A stretch of DNA of 64,000 nucleotides from Acutalibacteraceae bacterium (GCA_045533655.1 JAZSIE010000002.1:35069-99068); one strand, 5' to 3'. Positions 4,067 to 12,758 are shown, numbered from the stretch's first letter. Made by a program: numbers and translations. Notes: generated by a model not told the origin, from the sequence alone.

Positions 4067-4127
4067 AAAAAGAGTGAATAATTATCCGTTTGTAGCAATT
4101 TTCGACACGGAATATTCGCTCTTTTTG
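4067..4127 (+). terminator. Terminator-like compound hairpin after the GDPD gene
   Basis: gagtgaata (4072-4080) pairs with tattcgctc (4113-4121), then TTTTT. An inner ccgt/acgg stem is also present. Confidence 0.55.
4101..4107 (-). promoter_or_regulatory. Spo0A-box (0A box) in reverse orientation
   Basis: TTCGACA is the reverse complement of the TGTCGAA consensus; 123 nt upstream of the spo0A start. Confidence 0.4.
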
Positions 4128-4154: not shown

Positions 4155-4161
4155 TGTCGAA
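4155..4161 (+). promoter_or_regulatory. Spo0A-box (0A box) abutting the -35 of the spo0A promoter
   Basis: Exact TGTCGAA, 4 nt upstream of TTGACA. Confidence 0.5.
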
Positions 4162-4165
4162 AATA

Positions 4166-4193
4166 TTGACATGTATTAAATTGATAGTATAAT
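4166..4193 (+). promoter_or_regulatory. Candidate sigma-A promoter of spo0A
   Basis: TTGACA (4166-4171), 16-nt spacer, TATAAT (4188-4193). Confidence 0.55.
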
Positions 4194-4229: not shown

Positions 4230-4994
4230 ATGAGTGAACTATCTGTATTGTTCGCAGATGATTATGAAATTGTCAGTCAAAATCTTGCAGGATTTTCAAA
4301 ACTTGGGTTTACTTACAGAACGTGTGAGAAAGATGGTAACGTAGTATTAGAAGAATTGATGAAAAATCCTGTAGATGTTATTGTGATTGACTTCTTTATG
4401 AAAGGTATGGATGCTTTAGGTGTTTTAGAAAGATTTCAGAATCTCAATCCACTTATAACTCCCGCAGTAATCGTTCTTTCTGGTATAGATAACTCTGCAA
4501 TAAAAAATGAAGTAATTAAAAAAGGTGCAACTTATTATCTTAATAAACCTGTAAAACAATCTGTAATAATTTCTAAAATTATGGAAATAAAGAAAGCACG
4601 TGAAACAAATAGACTTCCGTCAAATTCTTGTGCATACTATATTGATAGTGAAGCTATAATTACTAATGTCATTCAGGAACTTTGTATTCCAGCACATCTT
4701 AAAGGATATAAATATTTAAGAGTGGCAATAAAGTCAAGTGTTGAAAACACAAAACTTGTAAATTCTATGACAACAGTTCTTTATCCGTTAGTAGCAGAAA
4801 ATTATGAAGTTTCAAGCGAGAGTGTCGAAAGGTCAATAAGAACTGCAATTCAACTTGCTTGGGATAGGGGTAACCCTGAAGCATTTTCAAAATATTTCGG
4901 GTATAATTCTCAGGTCAGAAAGAAAAGACCTACTAATGCAGAATTTATTGCAAGAATTTCAGATGAAATCAGAATTAAATATAATGTTTCTTGA
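4230..4994 (+). CDS. spo0A: sporulation transcription factor Spo0A (REC plus Spo0A_C DNA-binding domain)
   Basis: 254 aa. Receiver with DD pocket, DVIVIDFFMKGMDALGVLERF (phospho-Asp context) and LNKP Lys. The C-terminus IPAHLKGYKYLRVAI...VERSIRTAIQLAWDRGN...KRPTNAEFIARISDEI aligns with my recollection of the B. subtilis Spo0A effector domain. Confidence 0.85.
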   Translation: MSELSVLFADDYEIVSQNLAGFSKLGFTYRTCEKDGNVVLEELMKNPVDVIVIDFFMKGMDALGVLERFQNLNPLITPAVIVLSGIDNSAIKNEVIKKGATYYLNKPVKQSVIISKIMEIKKARETNRLPSNSCAYYIDSEAIITNVIQELCIPAHLKGYKYLRVAIKSSVENTKLVNSMTTVLYPLVAENYEVSSESVERSIRTAIQLAWDRGNPEAFSKYFGYNSQVRKKRPTNAEFIARISDEIRIKYNVS

Positions 4995-4999
4995 TATAT

Positions 5000-5049
5000 G
5001 TGCACAACAAACAATTTTAAAAATTGTTTGTTGTGCACGATGTTTTTTT
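5000..5049 (+). terminator. Rho-independent terminator after spo0A
   Basis: 19-bp perfect stem gtgcacaacaaacaatttt / aaaattgtttgttgtgcac, then a T-run. Confidence 0.85.
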
Positions 5050-5066
5050 ATAATTCTTATTTTACA

Positions 5067-5095
5067 TTGAAAAGTTTTGAGAATTGTGATACTAT
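5067..5095 (+). promoter_or_regulatory. Candidate promoter of the hybrid kinase gene
   Basis: TTGAAA, 17-nt spacer, TACTAT. Confidence 0.35.
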
Positions 5096-5140
5096 CAAAT
5101 TAATAGTATGGAAAAATATGTCTGAACGGAGCTGATTTTA

Positions 5141-8100
5141 ATGTTAACAAGATTAGATATTTCAGCATACAAGAGAATATATGACAAAAATTCTATGGCG
5201 GTTGCAGTTGTTACCTTGCTTAAAAATAAAAATGGCGAGGTAAATGATTTTGTTTATGAATATACAAATCAGGCAATGGCTGATATTGATGGTATTAAAG
5301 CATCAGATATTATAGGTAAAAAGTATTCTGCGCTTTATAAAAAATATCCATCTAAAACAACTCTTAAAAATCTCAGTGAGGTTGGCTTTAATGGTGGTGC
5401 AGGTACTTCTCAGGAATATTGGAATGAAGTGAGCCTTAGTGTATCTATGCACTATTCTCAGGTGAGTAATGGCGTAGTTTTAATAAATTTAGTAGGTATT
5501 TCAAGTGTTGACCAGCTTCGTTCTCATAACGAGCAATTGGTTAATAAAATTCCTGGTGGCGTTGTAATTATAGAGGTTACAGATACTATTCATTTCTTCC
5601 ACTGTAATGAATGGTACTATAACAATTTAGGTTACACCAGAGAAGAATTTGAAAAGATTAATAAGGATGATGAAAATTCGGGCATTCATCCGGAAGATGT
5701 TAACGTTTTAAAAGACAGTGTAGAAGAATGTCTTCTTGGTAAAAATGGTGATACTTTAACTTTCAGAGCCAAAACAAAAAATGGTAATTATAAATACGTG
5801 AATCTTACTACTACAGTAATGGGCAGAAATGATGGTAAGCTTACGCTTTATGGTCTTTATAGTGACGTTGATAAGCATATAAGACTTTCAAATAAATTAG
5901 CTTACGTTAATGCTGAAATGGATAATATGATTGCATCTATTCCAGGTGGTATTTCAAAGTATGTTTTAACAGAACAGGGTACGTTAAAACGTCTTTACAG
6001 TTCGCCTGGTATGGCAGAGCTTGTTGGTAAAACTCAGGAAGAATACGAAAGAGATTTCGACAATAACTGGAAAGATAATATTTATTATGCCGACTTCCCT
6101 ATTGTTCAGAAAAGTATAGTGGAGTGTATAAAAACATTAAAATCAACTGAATTTACATACAGACTTATTCATAAAGATGGTAGTCTTGTGTGGGTTACCG
6201 CCCTTGTTCGTGTTATTGGTGAAAAAGATGGAAGACCTATGGCACACGCCGTTTTCCACGCTATGACAAAGAGTGAAATTCTTTACCAGACACTTCTTGA
6301 TAATATTGACACCGTAACAATGGTCAGAGATATAACCAGTAACGAAATTCTTTATGCAAATAAAGCGGCTGGGTTATTTTTAGGTATAAATGAAAAACAA
6401 TTAATAGGTAAAAATTACCATGAGGCAATGAAAGAAAAACTTATTAATTGTGAAGAAATAGAAAAAGAATTAAGTAATGGTAAGGTAGAAGAAATAGTTA
6501 TTGGTGACAGGTGTTATAATGTTACCGTTGAAAAGCTTGTGTGGAATGACAGAGATTCAGTTGCATATTTCTTTACAGATATTACTGATTCGTGGAGTGC
6601 ACGGGCAGAACTTCAGGATGATAAGGACAAATTAGAAGAAATTGTAAGTAATATTCCTCTGGGTATAGTTGTGTTCAGATTGAGCGCAGATGATGAGCTT
6701 ATGGTTGAGCATTGTAATGACAGTATTTGTAATATTATAAAGATTGAAAAAGAAAAAGTAACGTATGGGGCGTTCAGTGATTTACGCCTGCCGTTTGACT
6801 TCACTCGTGAAGATTTAATCAGAATATTCAATGCTTTTGAAAAATCAAAGGAAGAAAATCAAGAGGTTGCTCTTGATTTTAGAATAGTTGATAAAAATGA
6901 CGGTAAGAAAACATGGGTTACAGTTAATTTCAAGAGTATTAAGCAGGATGACGGCAGTATTCTTATGTATGCAGGTTTTGTTGATATTACAAAACAGAAG
7001 GAAATGGAAGAAAAACTGGTTCTTAATACAAAGGAATTAAAAGAATCACTTGTTAAATTGCAGGAAAATCAGGATAGACTTAACGCTGTTTCAAAACGAG
7101 CAGACCTTTTCTATTGGGAAATTGAACTTGAGACCGGTGAGGTAACCGCTTCATTTGCCGGTGAAAATTCACCAAGTCTCAATTTTAAAAACGAAGGCTT
7201 TGGTACAGACTTTATTATTCCTTATGACCTCGAGTATTTTAAGGTTATGACGAGTATTGCGGCTTCTGGTAAAGAGTCTCACGTTACATTTGATATCCGT
7301 GTAGGTCAAAGCGAGGAAAAGAGTGAGTGGTACAGAATCACTTACGATATCATTCGTGATGATGAAAATAAACCTGTAAGTCTTTTAGGTCTTGCACAGA
7401 ATATAAACGAACTTAAATTAGAACAAAGACGTCTTGATGAAGAAATAGAAAACGTTGAAACGGCAACACAAAGGCAAGATGTTCTTTCTACAATGAGAAT
7501 TAATCTTACAGATGACTGTGTTGAAAGCTATAGCAGTAAGCCTGAAACGAGGCTTTCTATAAAGGCAGGGGATAAATACAGTGATGCAATTTATATGATT
7601 GCAGAGCATGCGGTTTCAAAATCACAGAAAAATGAAATAATAAAGCAGCATAGCGTGGCAAAGCTTCTTCAGAGCTTTGAGGATGGCGAAAAATCACTTT
7701 CATTTGATTATCAGATTGAAACTTACGACAGTGCTAACTGCTGGATTAACAGTTCAATTCGTATTTACAGACATCCTGTAACACGAAAAGTAATGTGCTT
7801 TATGTACTGCTACGATATTAATGATATTCATATTACAAGGGATATTATTGACAAGGTTATTGAAGATGGCTATGAGCATATAAGCGTTATTAACGTTAAG
7901 AGCAGAAAGGTTGAGCTTGCGTTAGGTAATGCCAACGAAAACTATTATTTCAAAACAGGCGATGCTTTTGACCGCTCTTTAATGGAAAGTTTTGCTCGCT
8001 TAACGTCGCTTCAGGATGCGGAAACTAATTTTGATAACTGTTGTCTTTCAAATGTATTGTTTGAATTAAGTGACAGAGAAGAATTTGCCTATCCGTTCAA

Positions 8101-9403
8101 CGTTAATGAAACAACAAGAAAAGAACGTAAGCTTTTCACATATCTCTGGTTTGATAAAACAAAAACAAAGATTCTTTTGCTTGTAACTGATATTACAGAT
8201 GTTTACCAGCAAGAAATAAAGCGTTCAGAAGAACTTGCAAAAGCGCTTGATGCGGCTGTTCTTGCAAATAAATCAAAAACGGATTTCTTGTCACGAATGA
8301 GCCACGAAATCCGTACACCTATGAATGCTATTTTAGGTATGTCAAGACTTGGTGAAGAGGCAACACAGGATGATTCAGTTGTTGAATATTTTAAAGATAT
8401 TAATGCTTCTGGTAATTATCTTTTAGGTCTTATTAACGATATTTTAGATATGAGCCGTATAGAGCAGGGCAAGATGGATATAGTCAATAAGTACGAAGAA
8501 GCAGAAGAAATGATTCGTTCGGTTGAAGTTGTTATAAGGCCTTTGGCAGAAGCGAAAAATATAACATTTAACATTAACCGATTTGGGCAGATGCCACAAT
8601 GGCTTCATCTTGATAAACTTCGTGCACAGCAGGTTTATATCAATATTCTTAATAACGCTGTTAAATTCACAGAACCTGGTGGCAAAATTGACTGGGATAT
8701 AAATAGCGAAATGATAAGCGATAATAAAGTGAAGTTCACTATAAATATCAGCGATACTGGTTGCGGTATGAGTGAAAGCTTTTTAGAGCGAATTTTTGAG
8801 CCGTTTGCCCAGGAGCAAAATAGTCTTGTAAATGCACGTCAGGGAACAGGTCTGGGTCTTGCAATAGCAAAAAGTATAGTTGAAAAAATGGGCGGTACTA
8901 TTACTGTTGCAAGTAAAATTGGTATTGGTACAACATTTACTATTGAATTGGTCAGAGATTGTAAACAAGTTAACTCTCAGGCGAGTATTTCTCAGGAAAC
9001 TGATGATATGAAAACTATTCTTGATGGTAAGAAAGTATTACTTTGTGAAGACCATCCGCTTAATACCCTTGTTGCAACAAAACTTCTTGAAAAGGTTGGT
9101 ATTAAGGTTGTAACTGCTGAAAACGGTAGTATTGGTGTTGATGTGTTTGCTGCTTCGGAAGAAAATGAATTTAATGCCGTTCTTATGGATATAAGAATGC
9201 CTGTAATGGATGGTCTTGAAGCAACCACAAAAATCAGAGCGCTTAATAGACAAGATGCAAAATCAGTGCCTATTATTGCAATGACTGCCAATGCTTTTGC
9301 AGAAGACAAAAGTCTTTCTAAATCAGCGGGTATGAACGAGCACCTTTCAAAACCTATTGAACCACAGATTTTATATAAAACGTTGGCAGATTATATAAAA
9401 TGA
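5141..9403 (+). CDS. cytoplasmic multi-PAS hybrid sensor histidine kinase (PAS repeats-HisKA-HATPase-REC)
   Basis: 1420 aa with no N-terminal TM segment. H-box SHEIRTPMNAILG, N-box NILNNAVKFT, G1 DTGCGM, G2 GTGLGLAIAK. C-terminal receiver VLLCEDHP...VLMDIRMPVMDG...SKP. Confidence 0.9.
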   Translation: MLTRLDISAYKRIYDKNSMAVAVVTLLKNKNGEVNDFVYEYTNQAMADIDGIKASDIIGKKYSALYKKYPSKTTLKNLSEVGFNGGAGTSQEYWNEVSLSVSMHYSQVSNGVVLINLVGISSVDQLRSHNEQLVNKIPGGVVIIEVTDTIHFFHCNEWYYNNLGYTREEFEKINKDDENSGIHPEDVNVLKDSVEECLLGKNGDTLTFRAKTKNGNYKYVNLTTTVMGRNDGKLTLYGLYSDVDKHIRLSNKLAYVNAEMDNMIASIPGGISKYVLTEQGTLKRLYSSPGMAELVGKTQEEYERDFDNNWKDNIYYADFPIVQKSIVECIKTLKSTEFTYRLIHKDGSLVWVTALVRVIGEKDGRPMAHAVFHAMTKSEILYQTLLDNIDTVTMVRDITSNEILYANKAAGLFLGINEKQLIGKNYHEAMKEKLINCEEIEKELSNGKVEEIVIGDRCYNVTVEKLVWNDRDSVAYFFTDITDSWSARAELQDDKDKLEEIVSNIPLGIVVFRLSADDELMVEHCNDSICNIIKIEKEKVTYGAFSDLRLPFDFTREDLIRIFNAFEKSKEENQEVALDFRIVDKNDGKKTWVTVNFKSIKQDDGSILMYAGFVDITKQKEMEEKLVLNTKELKESLVKLQENQDRLNAVSKRADLFYWEIELETGEVTASFAGENSPSLNFKNEGFGTDFIIPYDLEYFKVMTSIAASGKESHVTFDIRVGQSEEKSEWYRITYDIIRDDENKPVSLLGLAQNINELKLEQRRLDEEIENVETATQRQDVLSTMRINLTDDCVESYSSKPETRLSIKAGDKYSDAIYMIAEHAVSKSQKNEIIKQHSVAKLLQSFEDGEKSLSFDYQIETYDSANCWINSSIRIYRHPVTRKVMCFMYCYDINDIHITRDIIDKVIEDGYEHISVINVKSRKVELALGNANENYYFKTGDAFDRSLMESFARLTSLQDAETNFDNCCLSNVLFELSDREEFAYPFNVNETTRKERKLFTYLWFDKTKTKILLLVTDITDVYQQEIKRSEELAKALDAAVLANKSKTDFLSRMSHEIRTPMNAILGMSRLGEEATQDDSVVEYFKDINASGNYLLGLINDILDMSRIEQGKMDIVNKYEEAEEMIRSVEVVIRPLAEAKNITFNINRFGQMPQWLHLDKLRAQQVYINILNNAVKFTEPGGKIDWDINSEMISDNKVKFTINISDTGCGMSESFLERIFEPFAQEQNSLVNARQGTGLGLAIAKSIVEKMGGTITVASKIGIGTTFTIELVRDCKQVNSQASISQETDDMKTILDGKKVLLCEDHPLNTLVATKLLEKVGIKVVTAENGSIGVDVFAASEENEFNAVLMDIRMPVMDGLEATTKIRALNRQDAKSVPIIAMTANAFAEDKSLSKSAGMNEHLSKPIEPQILYKTLADYIK

Positions 9404-9407
9404 TAAA

Positions 9408-9450
9408 AAAGAGAGTTTTACTAAATGGTAAAGCTCTCTTTATTCTTTAT
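9408..9450 (+). terminator. Rho-independent terminator after the hybrid kinase
   Basis: agagagttttac / gtaaagctctct stem followed by a T-rich tail. Confidence 0.7.
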
Positions 9451-9559
9451 TGAAATTACAAAAAAGAATAATAATTATTAAAAAAATGTGAAAAACGAGG
9501 ACTTTTTTGTTAAAACACACTATTTTTACTGACATTGGTGAAAATTTTTGTGCTTTTTC

Positions 9560-9587
9560 TTGCATTTTTCTTTTAAAGTGTTATAAT
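9560..9587 (+). promoter_or_regulatory. Candidate extended -10 promoter of the REC-EAL gene
   Basis: TTGCAT, 16-nt spacer, TGtTATAAT. Confidence 0.5.
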
Positions 9588-9652
9588 GATATTTATAGGA
9601 GAATGTGTTATTGTATCTTAATGCATCTCAAAAAAAATTAGGGGGCTTTTTT

Positions 9653-12226
9653 GTGTCGAATAAAGATATCGTTCTTGTTATTGATGACGATAGAGTTGAC
9701 AGAGAAATATTGAAAAATATTCTTTCTAAAGACTTTTATGTTGTCGATTATCAAGATGCGCAAGAAGGTTTTGATTTTCTCGCAAGGCATGAACAAGAGG
9801 TTAAATGTGTTGTAGTTGACATCTATATGCCTGGTATGGACGGTTATGGTTTTTTAAAGAAAGTAAACGAAAGCGGCCTAAAAATACCAATTATCGTTAC
9901 TACAAGCGATTTAGGAGAAGATACTCAGGTTAAGGTTTTAGCAGATGGTGCTTGGGATTTTATTACTAAGCCATATAATGCTGAAATAGTTAAGTTAAGA
10001 GTTCAAAACGCTATTATGCGTACCGAATTCTTTGCATTTAAAAAATTAAAATACATAGCTGAGTATGACGTTCTTACAGGTATTTTTAATAAAGATAAAT
10101 TCTTGAAGAAAACAAGAATAATGCTTGATAATAATCCTGATAAGAAATTCGCATTTATCCGTTTTGATATTGACCGTTTCCAATTGGTGAATTCATTCTA
10201 TGGTTCGAGCGAAGGCGACAGAATCATAAAGTATCTCGCAATGGGACTTGAAAATTTAGCAAATCAAAGGTCAAATCTTACTTATGGTAGAATTGAAGCT
10301 GAAGTTTTCGCACTTTGCGGTGAATACGAAACAGAAGAAGAAGTTTACGAACTTATAGAAAAACATATAGAGATAATCAAAAGCTACAACAGAAACTTTG
10401 ACCTTGTTCCCAATTTCGGTGTTTACTTCCTTGACGACTTAACTCTTTCCCCTGGAGTTATGTTAGACAGAGCAACACTTGCCGCTAAAGAATGTAAAGG
10501 CAATTATATTGATACTGTTGGTGTGTTTAAGCCTGAAATGAGTATGAGGCTTGAAAAAGAACAGGAAATCGTTAACGAAATGGTGCAAGCATTACAGGAG
10601 GAACAATTTATTGTTTATCTCCAACCAAAATATTCACTTGAAACAAATGCACCAGCAGGTGCCGAAGCACTTGTAAGATGGATGCACCCTAAAAAGGGTA
10701 TGATTTCACCAGGTCTTTTCATTCCTGTATTTGAAAAGAATGGCTTTATTGAAAGACTTGACCATTACGTATGGGAAGTTATTTGTAAATATTTAAGAAA
10801 ATGGCTCGATGAAGGTATTAAACCACATCCTATTTCTGTTAATATTTCGCGTGTTGATTTATATAACCCACAAATCGTTGAGTTTATTATAGGTCTTGTA
10901 GATAAATATAATCTTCCGCACGAATTGTTCCAACTTGAACTTACAGAAACTGCATATATGGATAACCCACATATTATGAAGCAGGTTGTTTCAGGGCTTA
11001 AAGAAAATGGTTTTACTGTTATGATGGATGACTTTGGAAGCGGGTATTCATCACTCAGTGTTCTTAAAGAAATTGAAGTTGACGTTCTTAAAATTGATAT
11101 GCGTTTCTTCGATAGTACCGGTGCTAATGATGGCAGAAGTGAAAATATTATTGCTTCTGTTGTGCGTATGGCAAAATGGCTCGGTATGCCTGCTGTTGCA
11201 GAAGGTGTTGAAAAAGCAGAACAAGTTAACTTCCTCGGTAGTGTTGGTTGTGAATACGTGCAAGGGTTCTACTTTGCAAGACCAATGCCTATTGATGAAT
11301 ATGAAAAACTTGTGAGAGAAAATAAAGAAAAGACTGTCACCAAAAACGTTGATTTAACAGGTGCTCTTACAATGGATAAGTTGTGGTCATCTGCTCCTGA
11401 AATGGAGATTCTTTTCTCAAATTCTGCTCAACCAAGTGCAATTTGTGAATTTGATGGCAACAAGTTTACATATTTAAGAACCAATAATGCATACAAAGAG
11501 TTGTTTGGTGCCGATGGTGTTTCTGAAGGTAATCCTATGGATTACATCTTCTATGAGTACAAAAATGACGTTCTTGAGGCATTCGCTAATGCAATTAAAA
11601 ACGATGAAATTACAGAGTGTCAATATAAACGTCGTGTACAACAAGGTAATGCTCTCTGGGTTTCAAAGAAACTTCAGTATATTGGTAAAGTTGGCGAAGA
11701 AAAATCTATTTTTGTTGCAAATCTTACTGATATTACTGTTCAGAAAGAAGTTGAAACAGAACTCAGAAAGCTCAAAAAGGTTATGAATAGCGGCAATAAA
11801 GATAAGCCTAAAAAACTTCTTGTTGTTGATGATTCAGAGCTTAGTAGCAGAATTATCAAAGATATTTTTGCTAATAGCTATGAAGTTATGCTTGCAAAGA
11901 ATGGTTTAGAAGGACTTAATCTTTTAAGAGAATATAAAAATGAAGTTGCAGTTGTTCTACTTGATATGGTTATGCCTATTATGGATGGTAAAGAATTCTT
12001 AACACACAAGAATTCTGATGAGGATACCGTAGATATTCCGGTAATTGTTATATCAAGTGAAAATGATGAAGGACTTCAGGTCGATATGCTCCAGATGGGC
12101 GTTAATGACTATATTACAAAGCCATTTGTTGCTGAAGTTATTGCTCGTCGTGTTAAAAATGTTATTGATTACAACGAGCGCTTCAGAAAAATGGTTAAAG
12201 AATATCAAAATATGTCAAAAGATTAA
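9653..12226 (+). CDS. response regulator / c-di-GMP phosphodiesterase: REC-degenerate GGDEF-EAL-PAS-REC
   Basis: GTG start 7 nt after a GGGGG RBS (the ORF track starts at 9605). N-terminal REC (VLVIDDD...VVVDIYMPGMDG...TKP). GGDEF position reads GRIEAEVFAL (degenerate). EAL motifs are intact (GAEALVRW, ELTE, DDFGSGYSSL, KIDMRF, EGVE, QGFYFARP). C-terminal PAS-like segment plus a second REC (LLVVDDS...VLLDMVMPIMDG...TKP). Confidence 0.85.
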   Translation: MSNKDIVLVIDDDRVDREILKNILSKDFYVVDYQDAQEGFDFLARHEQEVKCVVVDIYMPGMDGYGFLKKVNESGLKIPIIVTTSDLGEDTQVKVLADGAWDFITKPYNAEIVKLRVQNAIMRTEFFAFKKLKYIAEYDVLTGIFNKDKFLKKTRIMLDNNPDKKFAFIRFDIDRFQLVNSFYGSSEGDRIIKYLAMGLENLANQRSNLTYGRIEAEVFALCGEYETEEEVYELIEKHIEIIKSYNRNFDLVPNFGVYFLDDLTLSPGVMLDRATLAAKECKGNYIDTVGVFKPEMSMRLEKEQEIVNEMVQALQEEQFIVYLQPKYSLETNAPAGAEALVRWMHPKKGMISPGLFIPVFEKNGFIERLDHYVWEVICKYLRKWLDEGIKPHPISVNISRVDLYNPQIVEFIIGLVDKYNLPHELFQLELTETAYMDNPHIMKQVVSGLKENGFTVMMDDFGSGYSSLSVLKEIEVDVLKIDMRFFDSTGANDGRSENIIASVVRMAKWLGMPAVAEGVEKAEQVNFLGSVGCEYVQGFYFARPMPIDEYEKLVRENKEKTVTKNVDLTGALTMDKLWSSAPEMEILFSNSAQPSAICEFDGNKFTYLRTNNAYKELFGADGVSEGNPMDYIFYEYKNDVLEAFANAIKNDEITECQYKRRVQQGNALWVSKKLQYIGKVGEEKSIFVANLTDITVQKEVETELRKLKKVMNSGNKDKPKKLLVVDDSELSSRIIKDIFANSYEVMLAKNGLEGLNLLREYKNEVAVVLLDMVMPIMDGKEFLTHKNSDEDTVDIPVIVISSENDEGLQVDMLQMGVNDYITKPFVAEVIARRVKNVIDYNERFRKMVKEYQNMSKD

Positions 12227-12240
12227 TTTGACTGCAAAAT

Positions 12241-12274
12241 GATTGTATTAAGCCGTATTTGGTTTAATACAATC
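12241..12274 (+). other. Hairpin between the REC-EAL and Hpt genes (weak terminator or processing site)
   Basis: gattgtattaa / ttaatacaatc 11-bp stem; only a short T tract follows. Confidence 0.35.
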
Positions 12275-12293
12275 ACTTTTGACTTGAGTAGGG

Positions 12294-12659
12294 ATGAGAA
12301 AAAGTATTATGGATAGAGAAATTTTAGAGTCGGTGGAAATTGACTACGCTGAAGCAGAAGAACGTTTTTCTGGTTCAACTGAATTGTTTGAAAAATTCCT
12401 TGAAGAAATTGCGACAATGAATGTTATTGCACCATTACAAAAGGCATTGACCGATGGTGACATAATAAACGCTTTCAAAGTAGCACACACTTTAAAGGGC
12501 AACTTTGGTAATTTGAGTATGAAACCACTTTATAAAATTATTACACCGCTTGTAGAAGCGTTGAGAAGTGAGAATATGCTCGAAGCACAGAAGCTTTATA
12601 TAGAGCTTGAAAAAGAATATGGAATTGTTACCGAAGGAATAAGAAAAGCAATGAAATAA
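12294..12659 (+). CDS. stand-alone Hpt (histidine phosphotransfer) domain protein
   Basis: 121 aa, predicted all-helical. Hpt signature AHTLKGNFGNL with the candidate phospho-His at codon 65 (12486-12488). Start could instead be the ATG at 12309. Confidence 0.75.
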   Translation: MRKSIMDREILESVEIDYAEAEERFSGSTELFEKFLEEIATMNVIAPLQKALTDGDIINAFKVAHTLKGNFGNLSMKPLYKIITPLVEALRSENMLEAQKLYIELEKEYGIVTEGIRKAMK

Positions 12660-12718: not shown

Positions 12719-12758
12719 AAAAGCACCACTCAGATTTGACTAAGTGGTGCTTTTTTTT
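12719..12758. terminator. Bidirectional rho-independent terminator
   Basis: aaagcaccact / agtggtgcttt stem flanked by A- and T-runs. Confidence 0.75.

What the first reader, a model, noticed from the sequence alone, without database searches (positions are those of the whole stretch)
4230..12659. spo0A sits next to a soluble multi-PAS hybrid kinase, a dual-receiver EAL protein and a stand-alone Hpt: candidate Hpt-based phosphorelay
Four consecutive same-strand genes encode Spo0A (REC plus the characteristic Spo0A_C domain), a 1420-aa TM-less kinase, a REC-GGDEF*-EAL-PAS-REC protein and a 121-aa Hpt protein (AHTLKG, His65). The kinase has several PAS domains, HisKA, HATPase and its own C-terminal receiver. 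Established knowledge: Bacilli feed Spo0A through Spo0F and Spo0B, while Clostridia are thought to phosphorylate Spo0A directly from orphan kinases. Hybrid-kinase, REC, Hpt, REC relays are typical of Proteobacteria. A hybrid kinase plus a free Hpt beside spo0A therefore suggests a multistep relay whose output could be Spo0A and/or the two receivers of the c-di-GMP phosphodiesterase, which would couple sporulation entry to c-di-GMP turnover. Caveat seen in the sequence: strong terminators follow spo0A (5000..5049) and the kinase (9408..9450), so these are neighbouring transcription units rather than one operon. Functional linkage is inference.
Basis: partly seen in the sequence, partly recalled or inferred. 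Interest (0 to 1): 0.62.

Follow-up and report, generated by a model that had tools for sequence, protein, structure and literature searches.

The report
Spo0A-like regulator beside Hpt phosphorelay
An uncultured ruminant-gut Clostridia bacterium has a fast-evolving copy-like relative of the sporulation master regulator Spo0A next to a complete four-step phosphorelay that most likely controls c-di-GMP breakdown, but only adjacency links the two.

Summary
The four genes are real, intact and cytoplasmic. They are a REC+Spo0A_C regulator, a 1420-aa multi-PAS hybrid kinase, a REC-GGDEF*-EAL-PAS-REC phosphodiesterase and a small Hpt protein.

The "Spo0A" is not a standard one:
- It scores below NCBI's Spo0A equivalog cut-off and is only 36-41% identical to the spoIVB-linked Spo0A of the same family.
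- It never lies near spoIVB.
- It is confined to one uncultured Acutalibacteraceae genus plus one 49% relative.
- It is the fastest-evolving of the four signalling proteins.
- Two 0A boxes at its own promoter are conserved, which suggests autoregulation.

The cluster is present in every species of the genus, but so are the unrelated flanking genes. The 49% relative has no kinase, EAL or Hpt gene beside it.

The EAL and Hpt genes look co-transcribed. The Hpt His helix and the alpha-1 helices of the kinase and phosphodiesterase receivers are invariant across 15 species, whereas the Spo0A-like receiver's alpha-1 is hypervariable.

Best reading: kinase to Hpt to phosphodiesterase, with a neighbouring Spo0A paralog.

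Interest is moderate.

The parts
4101..4107 (-). upstream 0A-box-like heptamer (TGTCGAA on the minus strand)
   Evidence: Exact match. Kept at about -130 from the start codon in 14 of 16 aligned genus loci, and in the 49% relative L012.
4155..4161 (+). 0A-box-like heptamer TGTCGAA, 4 nt upstream of the -35 element
   Evidence: Exact match. Kept in 14 of 16 aligned genus loci, while the surrounding spacer varies.
4166..4193 (+). sigma-70-type promoter TTGACA-16-TATAAT of the Spo0A-like gene
   Evidence: 12 of 12 consensus matches. Both hexamers are conserved across the genus.
4230..4994 (+). Spo0A-family response regulator (REC + Spo0A_C, 254 aa), non-canonical clade
   Evidence: Pfam Spo0A_C 121.5 bits and REC 49.2 bits. 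TIGR02875 194.6 bits, below the cut-off of 200. The C-domain aligns over its full length to 1FC3 and 1LQ1.
4999..5049 (+). intrinsic terminator (19-bp stem plus T run)
5067..5095 (+). promoter-like site upstream of the kinase (TTGAAA-17-TACTAT with TG)
   Evidence: This is a consensus match only.
5141..9403 (+). cytoplasmic hybrid histidine kinase, 1420 aa: PAS x4-6, an unassigned 760-1030 region, HisKA, HATPase_c, REC
9408..9441 (+). terminator-like hairpin after the kinase
   Evidence: A hairpin followed by T-rich sequence is present at this position in all 15 aligned species.
9560..9587 (+). promoter of the EAL-Hpt unit (TTGCAT-16-TATAAT with an extended -10, TGTTATAAT)
   Evidence: Read. 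Strongly conserved in 15 species.
9653..12226 (+). REC-GGDEF(degenerate)-EAL-PAS-REC c-di-GMP phosphodiesterase, 857 aa
   Evidence: The EAL domain diverges by only 5% within the genus.
12240..12275 (+). AT-rich hairpin between EAL and Hpt; not a conserved terminator
12309..12659 (+). stand-alone Hpt protein (116 aa; alternative start at 12294 gives 121 aa), phospho-His in AHTLKG
12719..12754 (.). bidirectional terminator closing the Hpt unit and the convergent minus-strand genes

Best explanation
The region holds three neighbouring transcription units in an uncultured, ruminant-hindgut genus of Acutalibacteraceae (Oscillospirales).

Units 2 and 3 form a classical multistep phosphorelay:
1. 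The soluble multi-PAS hybrid kinase senses an intracellular cue and autophosphorylates on His.
2. It passes the phosphate to its own C-terminal receiver.
3. The free Hpt protein picks the phosphate up on His60.
4. Hpt delivers it to one or both receivers of the REC-GGDEF*-EAL-PAS-REC protein encoded in the same operon. This tunes c-di-GMP hydrolysis.

Unit 1 is a rapidly evolving Spo0A-family regulator. It is most likely a paralog of the spoIVB-linked Spo0A. It probably binds 0A-type boxes and autoregulates from a strong sigma-A promoter. It is probably not a dedicated partner of this Hpt.

Shown: gene content, intact catalytic motifs, the Hpt fold, promoter and terminator layout, conservation patterns, evolutionary rates, and absence of spoIVB.

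Inferred: every phosphotransfer step, DNA binding, and paralog status.
For: Components and motifs.

EAL and Hpt share one conserved promoter with an extended -10. They are separated by 25-82 nt with no conserved terminator; there is no hairpin at all in 6 of 15 species.

Interface conservation across 15 species:
- The Hpt His helix AHTLKGNFGN is invariant.
- Alpha-1 of the PDE REC2 is invariant; alpha-1 of the kinase REC and of PDE REC1 varies only by conservative changes at one to three positions. Overall 93/126 (kinase REC), 90/130 (PDE REC1) and 100/143 (PDE REC2) columns are invariant.
- The Spo0A-like REC has 42/125 invariant columns and a hypervariable alpha-1.
- In the Spo0A-like REC the second acidic residue is T in L007 and K in L024.

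Non-canonical status of the regulator:
- TIGR02875 gives 194.6 bits here and 171.4 for the 49% relative, against 270-271 for the spoIVB-linked L030 protein and for L031. The cut-off is 200.
- Identity to spoIVB-linked Acutalibacteraceae Spo0A is 36-41%.
- In a scan of 1.84 billion representatives, the clade forms only two 50% clusters, and everything else is at most 43% identical.
- spoIVB is absent from all clade loci and from the window, but lies directly upstream of the Spo0A-family gene in 47 other fetched loci.
- The clade does not join the family's canonical Spo0A group in the tree.
- Within-genus divergence is 27-31% for the regulator, against 4% for AbfA, 5% for the EAL domain and 19% for the radical-SAM neighbour. 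dS is broadly comparable across these genes (lower for the highly conserved glutamate dehydrogenase) and dN/dS is 0.06-0.23.

Autoregulation: two 0A heptamers plus the -35 and -10 elements are footprinted across the genus.

Spo0A paralogs are documented in Clostridiales (bioRxiv 10.1101/2022.02.25.481979).

All four genes are represented in bovine-gut metatranscriptome contigs.
Against: - No phosphotransfer was tested.
- A canonical spo0A in the same genome was not demonstrated. Several indirect attempts failed.
- Some spoIVB-linked Spo0A proteins of other uncultured Clostridia are just as divergent (L042 and L073). Divergence alone therefore does not prove paralogy.
- The AU test only marginally rejects grouping the clade with the family's canonical Spo0A (p = 0.043), and the group was chosen after seeing the tree.
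- The Spo0A-like receiver keeps D10, D54 and S84 in all 15 species, and K106 in all but L019 (R). It is therefore probably still phosphorylated by something.
- Strict co-occurrence of all four genes in the genus is compatible with a functional link.
Confidence: 0.55

Rival explanations
1. Branched relay. Hpt~P feeds both the phosphodiesterase receivers and the Spo0A-like receiver. One PAS-sensed signal would then set c-di-GMP level and a Spo0A-type transcriptional programme together. This is the logic of Pseudomonas RocS1 acting on RocA1 plus RocR.
For: - All four genes are adjacent on the same strand in every one of the 14 representative species and in further assemblies.
- The Spo0A-like REC keeps the phospho-acceptor Asp and the Ser in all 15 species, and the Lys in all but one.
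- Hpt and the Spo0A-like protein evolve at similar, high rates.
- A second Spo0A_C/Hpt adjacency exists in a Ruminococcus MAG, L080.
Against: - The synteny also covers unrelated flanking genes.
- The 49% homolog L012 has no relay genes beside it.
- A strong terminator and a separate promoter isolate the Spo0A-like gene.
- Alpha-1 of its REC is hypervariable opposite an invariant Hpt His helix, and its acidic pocket is altered in two species.
- Distance-matrix correlation gave no specific Hpt/Spo0A-REC signal (partial r = 0.14).
- Only 1 of about 60 non-genus Spo0A-family loci has an Hpt gene nearby.
Confidence: 0.2
2. The gene is the organism's only Spo0A: a translocated, fast-evolving ortholog rather than a paralog. 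It would then still be the sporulation master regulator, or its repurposed remnant in a lineage that is losing sporulation.
For: - Very divergent Spo0A proteins occur even in the spoIVB-linked position in other uncultured Clostridia. L040 against L042 shows SpoIVB 74% but Spo0A 46% identity.
- No second spo0A was found in any MAG of the genus, although the scan patterns could not detect canonical copies.
- PGAP named one clade member Spo0A.
- The 0A boxes at its promoter mirror canonical spo0A autoregulation.
Against: - The spoIVB-spo0A linkage holds in 47 fetched loci, including the most divergent ones, yet is absent here.
- The clade sits apart from the family's canonical Spo0A group.
- Canonical Acutalibacteraceae Spo0A is more conserved than SpoIVB (72-84% against 59-80%). 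This protein is the least conserved of the four signalling proteins.
- The window carries spoVAC (163 bits). That suggests a retained sporulation programme, which would normally constrain a sole Spo0A.
Confidence: 0.25
3. The genes are merely neighbours. The kinase, the Hpt and the phosphodiesterase each work with partners encoded elsewhere, and the cluster reflects genus-wide synteny only.
For: - The whole 20-kb region is collinear in the genus.
- The kinase has its own terminator.
- The window holds another REC-GGDEF*-EAL gene plus a CheY-like gene, so other partners exist.
Against: - A hybrid kinase needs an Hpt, and a free Hpt needs both a donor and an acceptor receiver.
- The only Hpt found lies 2.9 kb from the kinase and in the PDE operon.
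- The three candidate partner receivers and the Hpt His helix are jointly under strong constraint.
Confidence: 0.15

Closest known systems
Bacillus subtilis KinA-E / Spo0F / Spo0B / Spo0A sporulation phosphorelay
   Same: It is a four-step His-Asp-His-Asp transfer that ends on a receiver. A Spo0A-family REC+Spo0A_C regulator with 0A boxes at its own promoter is present.
   Different: - The middle His carrier here is a monomeric four-helix-bundle Hpt (PF01627), not the dimeric Spo0B.
- The first receiver is fused to the kinase rather than being a free Spo0F.
- The likely terminal acceptor is an EAL phosphodiesterase.
- The Spo0A-like gene is not spoIVB-linked and falls below the Spo0A equivalog cut-off.
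Pseudomonas aeruginosa RocS1/RocA1/RocR (SadARS) system (from my own knowledge)
   Same: A hybrid sensor kinase with an Hpt step is encoded beside both a DNA-binding response regulator and a REC-EAL c-di-GMP phosphodiesterase.
   Different: - It is proteobacterial.
- The Hpt is fused to the kinase.
- The DNA-binding output is not a Spo0A_C domain.
- The phosphodiesterase has a single receiver.
Vibrio LuxQ-LuxU-LuxO and Pseudomonas HptB relays
   Same: A hybrid kinase works with a small free Hpt protein. The best NCBIfam hit of the kinase core is LuxQ, and HptB (7C1I) is among the best structural matches of the Hpt.
   Different: - Those kinases are membrane-bound with periplasmic sensors; this one is cytoplasmic with a PAS array.
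- Their outputs are a sigma-54 activator or an anti-anti-sigma pathway.
Paralogous spo0A genes of Clostridiales (Galperin et al. 2022, bioRxiv 10.1101/2022.02.25.481979)
   Same: These are extra REC+Spo0A_C genes in Clostridia, away from the canonical locus and of unknown function.
   Different: - Paralog status is not proven here.
- This clade is restricted to one uncultured genus plus one relative, evolves unusually fast and sits beside an Hpt relay.

Membership tests
Canonical Spo0A (NCBIfam TIGR02875 equivalog) | REC domain followed by a Spo0A_C DNA-binding domain | tested here: met
   Pfam PF00072 49.2 bits and PF08769 121.5 bits. The C-domain aligns over its full length to 1FC3 and 1LQ1, at 44-47% identity.
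Canonical Spo0A (NCBIfam TIGR02875 equivalog) | Whole-protein score at or above the curated cut-off of 200 bits | tested here: not met
   194.6 bits, aligned only from residue 32. The 49% relative scores 171.4. The spoIVB-linked L030 protein scores 270, and L031 (no spoIVB within reach) 271.5.
Canonical Spo0A (NCBIfam TIGR02875 equivalog) | Gene immediately downstream of spoIVB | tested here: not met
   tblastn with three SpoIVB proteins found no hit in the 64-kb window or in any clade locus (L001-L028, L012). Hits lie directly upstream of the Spo0A-family gene in 47 other loci.
Canonical Spo0A (NCBIfam TIGR02875 equivalog) | Sole or orthologous copy in the genome | not testable with these tools
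Indirect look-ups found no shared MAG accession.
Canonical Spo0A (NCBIfam TIGR02875 equivalog) | Groups with the Spo0A of its own bacterial family in a tree | tested here: inconclusive
   The clade branches apart from the 100/100-supported canonical Acutalibacteraceae group. The AU test of the joint clade gives p = 0.043, and the group was defined post hoc.
Canonical Spo0A (NCBIfam TIGR02875 equivalog) | Binds 0A boxes (TGTCGAA) and autoregulates | tested here: inconclusive
   Two exact boxes at its promoter are conserved across the genus. Binding was not tested, and the window-wide count of the heptamer is not above chance (6 found against 8.2 expected).
Hpt phosphotransfer protein (PF01627) | Pfam score above the gathering threshold, and the HxxKG motif | tested here: met
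   27.5 bits against 24.6. AHTLKG is invariant in all orthologs.
Hpt phosphotransfer protein (PF01627) | Four-helix-bundle Hpt fold with the His on a central helix | tested here: met
   pLDDT 95.6, with His60 on helix 52-68. The top PDB matches are 3MYF, 7C1I, 9H6E and 3IQT, all Hpt, with TM 0.70-0.78.
Hybrid histidine kinase | HisKA H-box, HATPase N/G1/G2 boxes and a C-terminal receiver with the acceptor Asp | tested here: met
   Pfam HisKA 64.7, HATPase_c 91.7 and REC 76.7 bits. SHEIRTP, NNAVKF, DTGCGM, GTGLGL and MDIRMP are read.
Active EAL c-di-GMP phosphodiesterase with an inactive GGDEF | EAL, N, E, DDFG, K, EGVE and QG motifs are present, and the GGDEF signature is degenerate | tested here: met
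   EAL 215.7 bits. The motifs are read, and GGDEF is replaced by GRIEAE. Enzyme activity was not tested.
Multistep His-Asp-His-Asp phosphorelay | Phosphotransfer from kinase-REC to Hpt to terminal REC | not testable with these tools
   Only component presence, operon layout and interface conservation could be examined.

The most novel reading that the evidence does not exclude
A diverged, autoregulated Spo0A-family regulator is a terminal acceptor of an Hpt-based relay (hybrid kinase, then Hpt, then Spo0A-like receiver). This would be a route to a Spo0A-type switch that is independent of Spo0F and Spo0B. In an uncultured gut Clostridia genus it would also be wired to c-di-GMP turnover through the co-encoded dual-receiver phosphodiesterase.
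Probability: 0.15. Interest if true: 0.7.

Novelty: new variant of a known kind. Interest (0 to 1): 0.36.

Why it matters
How Spo0A is activated outside the model Bacilli and Clostridia is still being revised (PMC6136694, PMC11210211). The function of extra Spo0A-family genes is unknown. If this regulator were fed by an Hpt relay, it would be a third architecture for activating a Spo0A-type switch, and it would link that switch to c-di-GMP. As the evidence stands, the locus mainly documents two things. One is an ordinary-looking hybrid-kinase/Hpt/EAL relay in an uncultured Firmicute. The other is a genus-restricted, unusually fast-evolving Spo0A-like clade. That is useful for annotation, because such genes should not be auto-named Spo0A or used as sporulation markers in MAGs. 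It is not a breakthrough.

Tried and rejected

2. Indirect hunt for a canonical spo0A in the same MAGs.
   - I searched with the closest spoIVB-linked Spo0A.
   - I looked up five of the resulting clusters, P0250, P0258, P0241, P0264 and P0237.
   - I compared NCBI protein accessions.
   - No MAG or accession range was shared. This is uninformative, because only 120 of 8000 hits were visible.

3. The genome-contig scan could not see canonical copies. Its patterns require PTN[AS]EFIAR, whereas canonical proteins have PTNSEFIAM.

4. Laying metagenome contigs on a canonical spoIVB-spo0A locus gave many unrelated spo0A fragments that could not be attributed.

5. Distant Hpt homologs could not be reached. 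The word-based search and the metagenome scan returned only the same genus.

6. Mirror-tree and partial correlation between Hpt and each receiver gave no specific signal.

7. Enrichment of 0A boxes: the heptamer count in the window is at chance. The box at the EAL start codon is not conserved. Only the two promoter boxes were kept as evidence.

8. Horizontal transfer as the cause of the divergence step at the GDPD/spo0A-like boundary was rejected, because dS is broadly similar across the genes.

9. Earlier scan notes on relatives or by keywords held nothing relevant.

Full report
**Observation**

The ORF list and Pfam confirm four consecutive plus-strand genes:
- 4230-4994: Response_reg + Spo0A_C, 254 aa.
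- 5141-9403: PAS array, HisKA, HATPase_c, Response_reg, 1420 aa.
- 9605-12226: Response_reg, GGDEF, EAL, PAS_3, Response_reg.
- 12294-12659: Hpt.

Segment-wise Pfam places PAS modules above threshold at about residues 153-234, 285-367, 382-483 and 516-617 of the kinase. There are weak ones at about 30-110 and 688-751. Residues 760-1030 are unassigned.

From the translations:
- The kinase has the H-box SHEIRTP and the N, G1 and G2 boxes.
- All four receivers carry the acidic pair, the acceptor Asp, the Thr/Ser and the Lys.
- The EAL motifs are intact and GGDEF is degenerate (GRIEAE).
- The Hpt has AHTLKG.

None of the four proteins has a hydrophobic segment of transmembrane strength. The marginal Pfam score of the Hpt (27.5 against 24.6) is backed by a confident model (pLDDT 95.6). 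Its best PDB matches are all Hpt domains, including Shewanella 3MYF, P. aeruginosa HptB and BarA Hpt.

**Corrections**

- The EAL gene starts at GTG 9653. An invariant TAGGGGGCTTTTTTGTG precedes it in 15 species, and the orthologs are 854-857 aa.
- The Hpt most likely starts at 12309 (116 aa). Orthologs are 115-116 aa.

**Transcription units**

- The Spo0A-like gene has a perfect TTGACA-16-TATAAT promoter and a 19-bp-stem terminator.
- The kinase is followed by a hairpin and T-rich tail, present in all aligned species.
- The EAL gene has its own strongly conserved promoter with an extended -10.
- Between EAL and Hpt there is either no hairpin (6 of 15 species) or a hairpin of unrelated sequence that runs straight into the RBS without a T tract. 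EAL and Hpt are therefore most likely one operon.
- Bovine-gut metatranscriptome contigs cover all four genes at low depth. This shows expression but does not resolve the units.

**Who carries it**

The exact protein and its relatives come from sheep, goat, yak and cattle gut metagenomes. NCBI titles name the MAGs Acutalibacteraceae, Oscillospiraceae or Clostridia bacterium.

The word-based search finds a tight clade at 61-92% identity, one protein at 49%, and then only hits at 36% or less. A full HMMER scan of 1.84 billion representatives confirms this. The clade makes up two 50% clusters, and every other Spo0A-family representative is at most 43% identical.

**Neighbourhood**

The four-gene set is present in every clade locus long enough to show it:
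- the own species (L001, L002);
- further assemblies at 82%, 63% and 61% identity (L007-L011);
- 12 of the 14 GTDB species representatives L015-L028; L021 breaks off inside the kinase gene, and L019 shows all four genes but breaks off just after Hpt.

However, the flanking glutamate dehydrogenase, arabinofuranosidase, GDPD, two secreted proteins and radical-SAM gene are collinear too (GDPD is undetected in four of these loci). This is genus-wide synteny, not specific linkage.

The only relative outside the genus (P0028, 49%) lies between a rhamnosidase and a CBAH/MFS pair, with no kinase, EAL or Hpt gene.

Among about 60 other Spo0A-family loci, only one has an Hpt nearby. That is a Ruminococcus MAG with a Spo0A_C-only protein, a LytTR regulator and an Hpt.

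**Is it Spo0A?**

It belongs to the family. The C-domain aligns end to end with the crystallised Spo0A C-domains at 44-47% identity. But it fails several tests of being the canonical gene:
- TIGR02875 gives 194.6 bits against a cut-off of 200. The spoIVB-linked L030 protein scores 270 and L031 (not spoIVB-linked) 271.5.
- Identity to spoIVB-linked Acutalibacteraceae Spo0A is 36-41%.
- Its receiver is no closer to Spo0A receivers in the PDB than to generic ones.
- spoIVB is absent from the window and from all clade loci. It lies directly upstream of the Spo0A-family gene in 47 other fetched loci, including very divergent ones.
- In a 70-sequence tree the clade sits apart from the 100/100-supported canonical Acutalibacteraceae group. 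Forcing them together costs 22.5 log-likelihood units, but the AU p is only 0.043 and the test was post hoc.

Within the genus it is the fastest-evolving of the four signalling proteins:
- The receiver diverges by 31% and the C-domain by 27%.
- Comparison values are 1.4% (GDH), 4.4% (AbfA), 5% (EAL domain), 10-12% (kinase DHp and the three other receivers) and 19% (radical SAM).
- dS is broadly comparable across the genes (lower for GDH) and dN/dS is 0.06-0.23. It is a functional gene under relaxed constraint, not a pseudogene and not a transferred segment.

Two caveats apply:
- spoIVB-linked Spo0A proteins of some other uncultured Clostridia are equally divergent.
- I could not look for a second copy in the same genome.

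Galperin and colleagues report two or three spo0A paralogs in 11 Clostridiales genomes. The window also encodes SpoVAC (163 bits), which hints at a retained sporulation programme. I put paralog status at roughly 70%.

**Autoregulation**

TTCGACA at about -130 and TGTCGAA at about -76 (4 nt upstream of the -35) are each kept in 14 of 16 aligned genus loci, amid variable spacer sequence. The upstream box persists in the 49% relative. The heptamer is not enriched in the window as a whole, and the copy at the EAL start codon is not conserved. Only the promoter pair counts as evidence.

**Which receiver does the Hpt serve?**

Across 15 species the Hpt His helix (AHTLKGNFGN) is invariant. The alpha-1 helices and active sites are nearly invariant in the kinase receiver (93/126 invariant columns), PDE REC1 (90/130) and PDE REC2 (100/143).

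The Spo0A-like receiver has 42/125 invariant columns and a hypervariable alpha-1. Its second acidic residue is Thr in one species, Lys in another and Glu in three. The conserved Lys is Arg in one species.

Together with EAL-Hpt co-transcription, this favours the route kinase, own REC, Hpt, PDE receivers. The Spo0A-like protein would be a neighbour served by other kinases, or drifting towards partial phosphorylation independence. A mirror-tree test was uninformative.

**Comparison with known systems**

The relay is a standard hybrid-kinase/Hpt design, like LuxQ-LuxU or the HptB pathways. The branched alternative would resemble Pseudomonas RocS1/RocA1/RocR.

It differs from the Bacillus phosphorelay in two ways. 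It uses an Hpt instead of Spo0B, and a fused receiver instead of Spo0F.

The statement that Clostridia always phosphorylate Spo0A directly has been revised (PMC6136694; PMC11210211). A full-text search for papers naming Spo0A, Hpt, phosphorelay and Clostridia together found three, none of whose titles or abstracts concern an Hpt feeding Spo0A; I did not read them.

**Verdict**

The locus is a new variant of known kinds: a genus-restricted, fast-evolving, autoregulated Spo0A-like regulator next to an otherwise conventional Hpt relay that most likely governs c-di-GMP hydrolysis. Interest is moderate (0.36). The Hpt-to-Spo0A reading remains possible at about 15-20%.

Noticed in passing
L080:474-2145: A Ruminococcus sp. 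MAG from yak rumen has three adjacent genes: a stand-alone Spo0A_C protein (141 aa), a REC-LytTR regulator (264 aa) and an Hpt protein (118 aa, AHTLKG). It is the only other Spo0A_C/Hpt adjacency among about 60 non-genus loci.
   Followed up: partly
P0083, P0084, P0085: Proteins of 394-454 aa carry three or four tandem Spo0A_C domains. I did not know of this architecture.
   Followed up: no
L036-L072 (e.g. L051:9860-10351, L055, L064): Many 120-190 aa ORFs consist of a Spo0A_C domain only. They occur in Lachnospiraceae, Faecousia and Oscillospiraceae genomes, none next to spoIVB. One Faecousia MAG (JAZUAW01) has two.
   Followed up: partly
L040, L042, L048, L050; L073-L085: Some spoIVB-linked spo0A genes in uncultured Clostridia evolve faster than spoIVB itself. 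L040 against L042 shows SpoIVB 74% but Spo0A 46% identity. Their C-domains are only 41-46% identical to B. subtilis.
   Followed up: partly
window:33979-34428: A lone spoVAC gene (TIGR02838 163 bits, cut-off 164) has no adjacent spoVAD or spoVAE.
   Followed up: partly
window:34474-37057 (-): A second REC-GGDEF(degenerate)-EAL phosphodiesterase is followed by a 121-aa CheY-like single receiver. These are further possible partners for the kinase and Hpt.
   Followed up: partly
window:9502-9529: A sequence block TTTTTTGTnAA...yACTATTTTT lies about 30 nt upstream of the EAL promoter and is conserved in all 15 species. It is a candidate regulator-binding site and is not an 0A box.
   Followed up: no
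L007:10001-10765 and L024:10001-10762: In two species the second acidic residue of the Spo0A-like receiver is Thr (ADT) or Lys (ADK). The Lys change recalls CheY D13K, which is active without phosphorylation.
   Followed up: no
window:12763-14099 (-): Two tandem secreted hypothetical proteins downstream of Hpt evolve as fast as the Spo0A-like gene (26-27% divergence, dN/dS 0.1-0.34).
   Followed up: no
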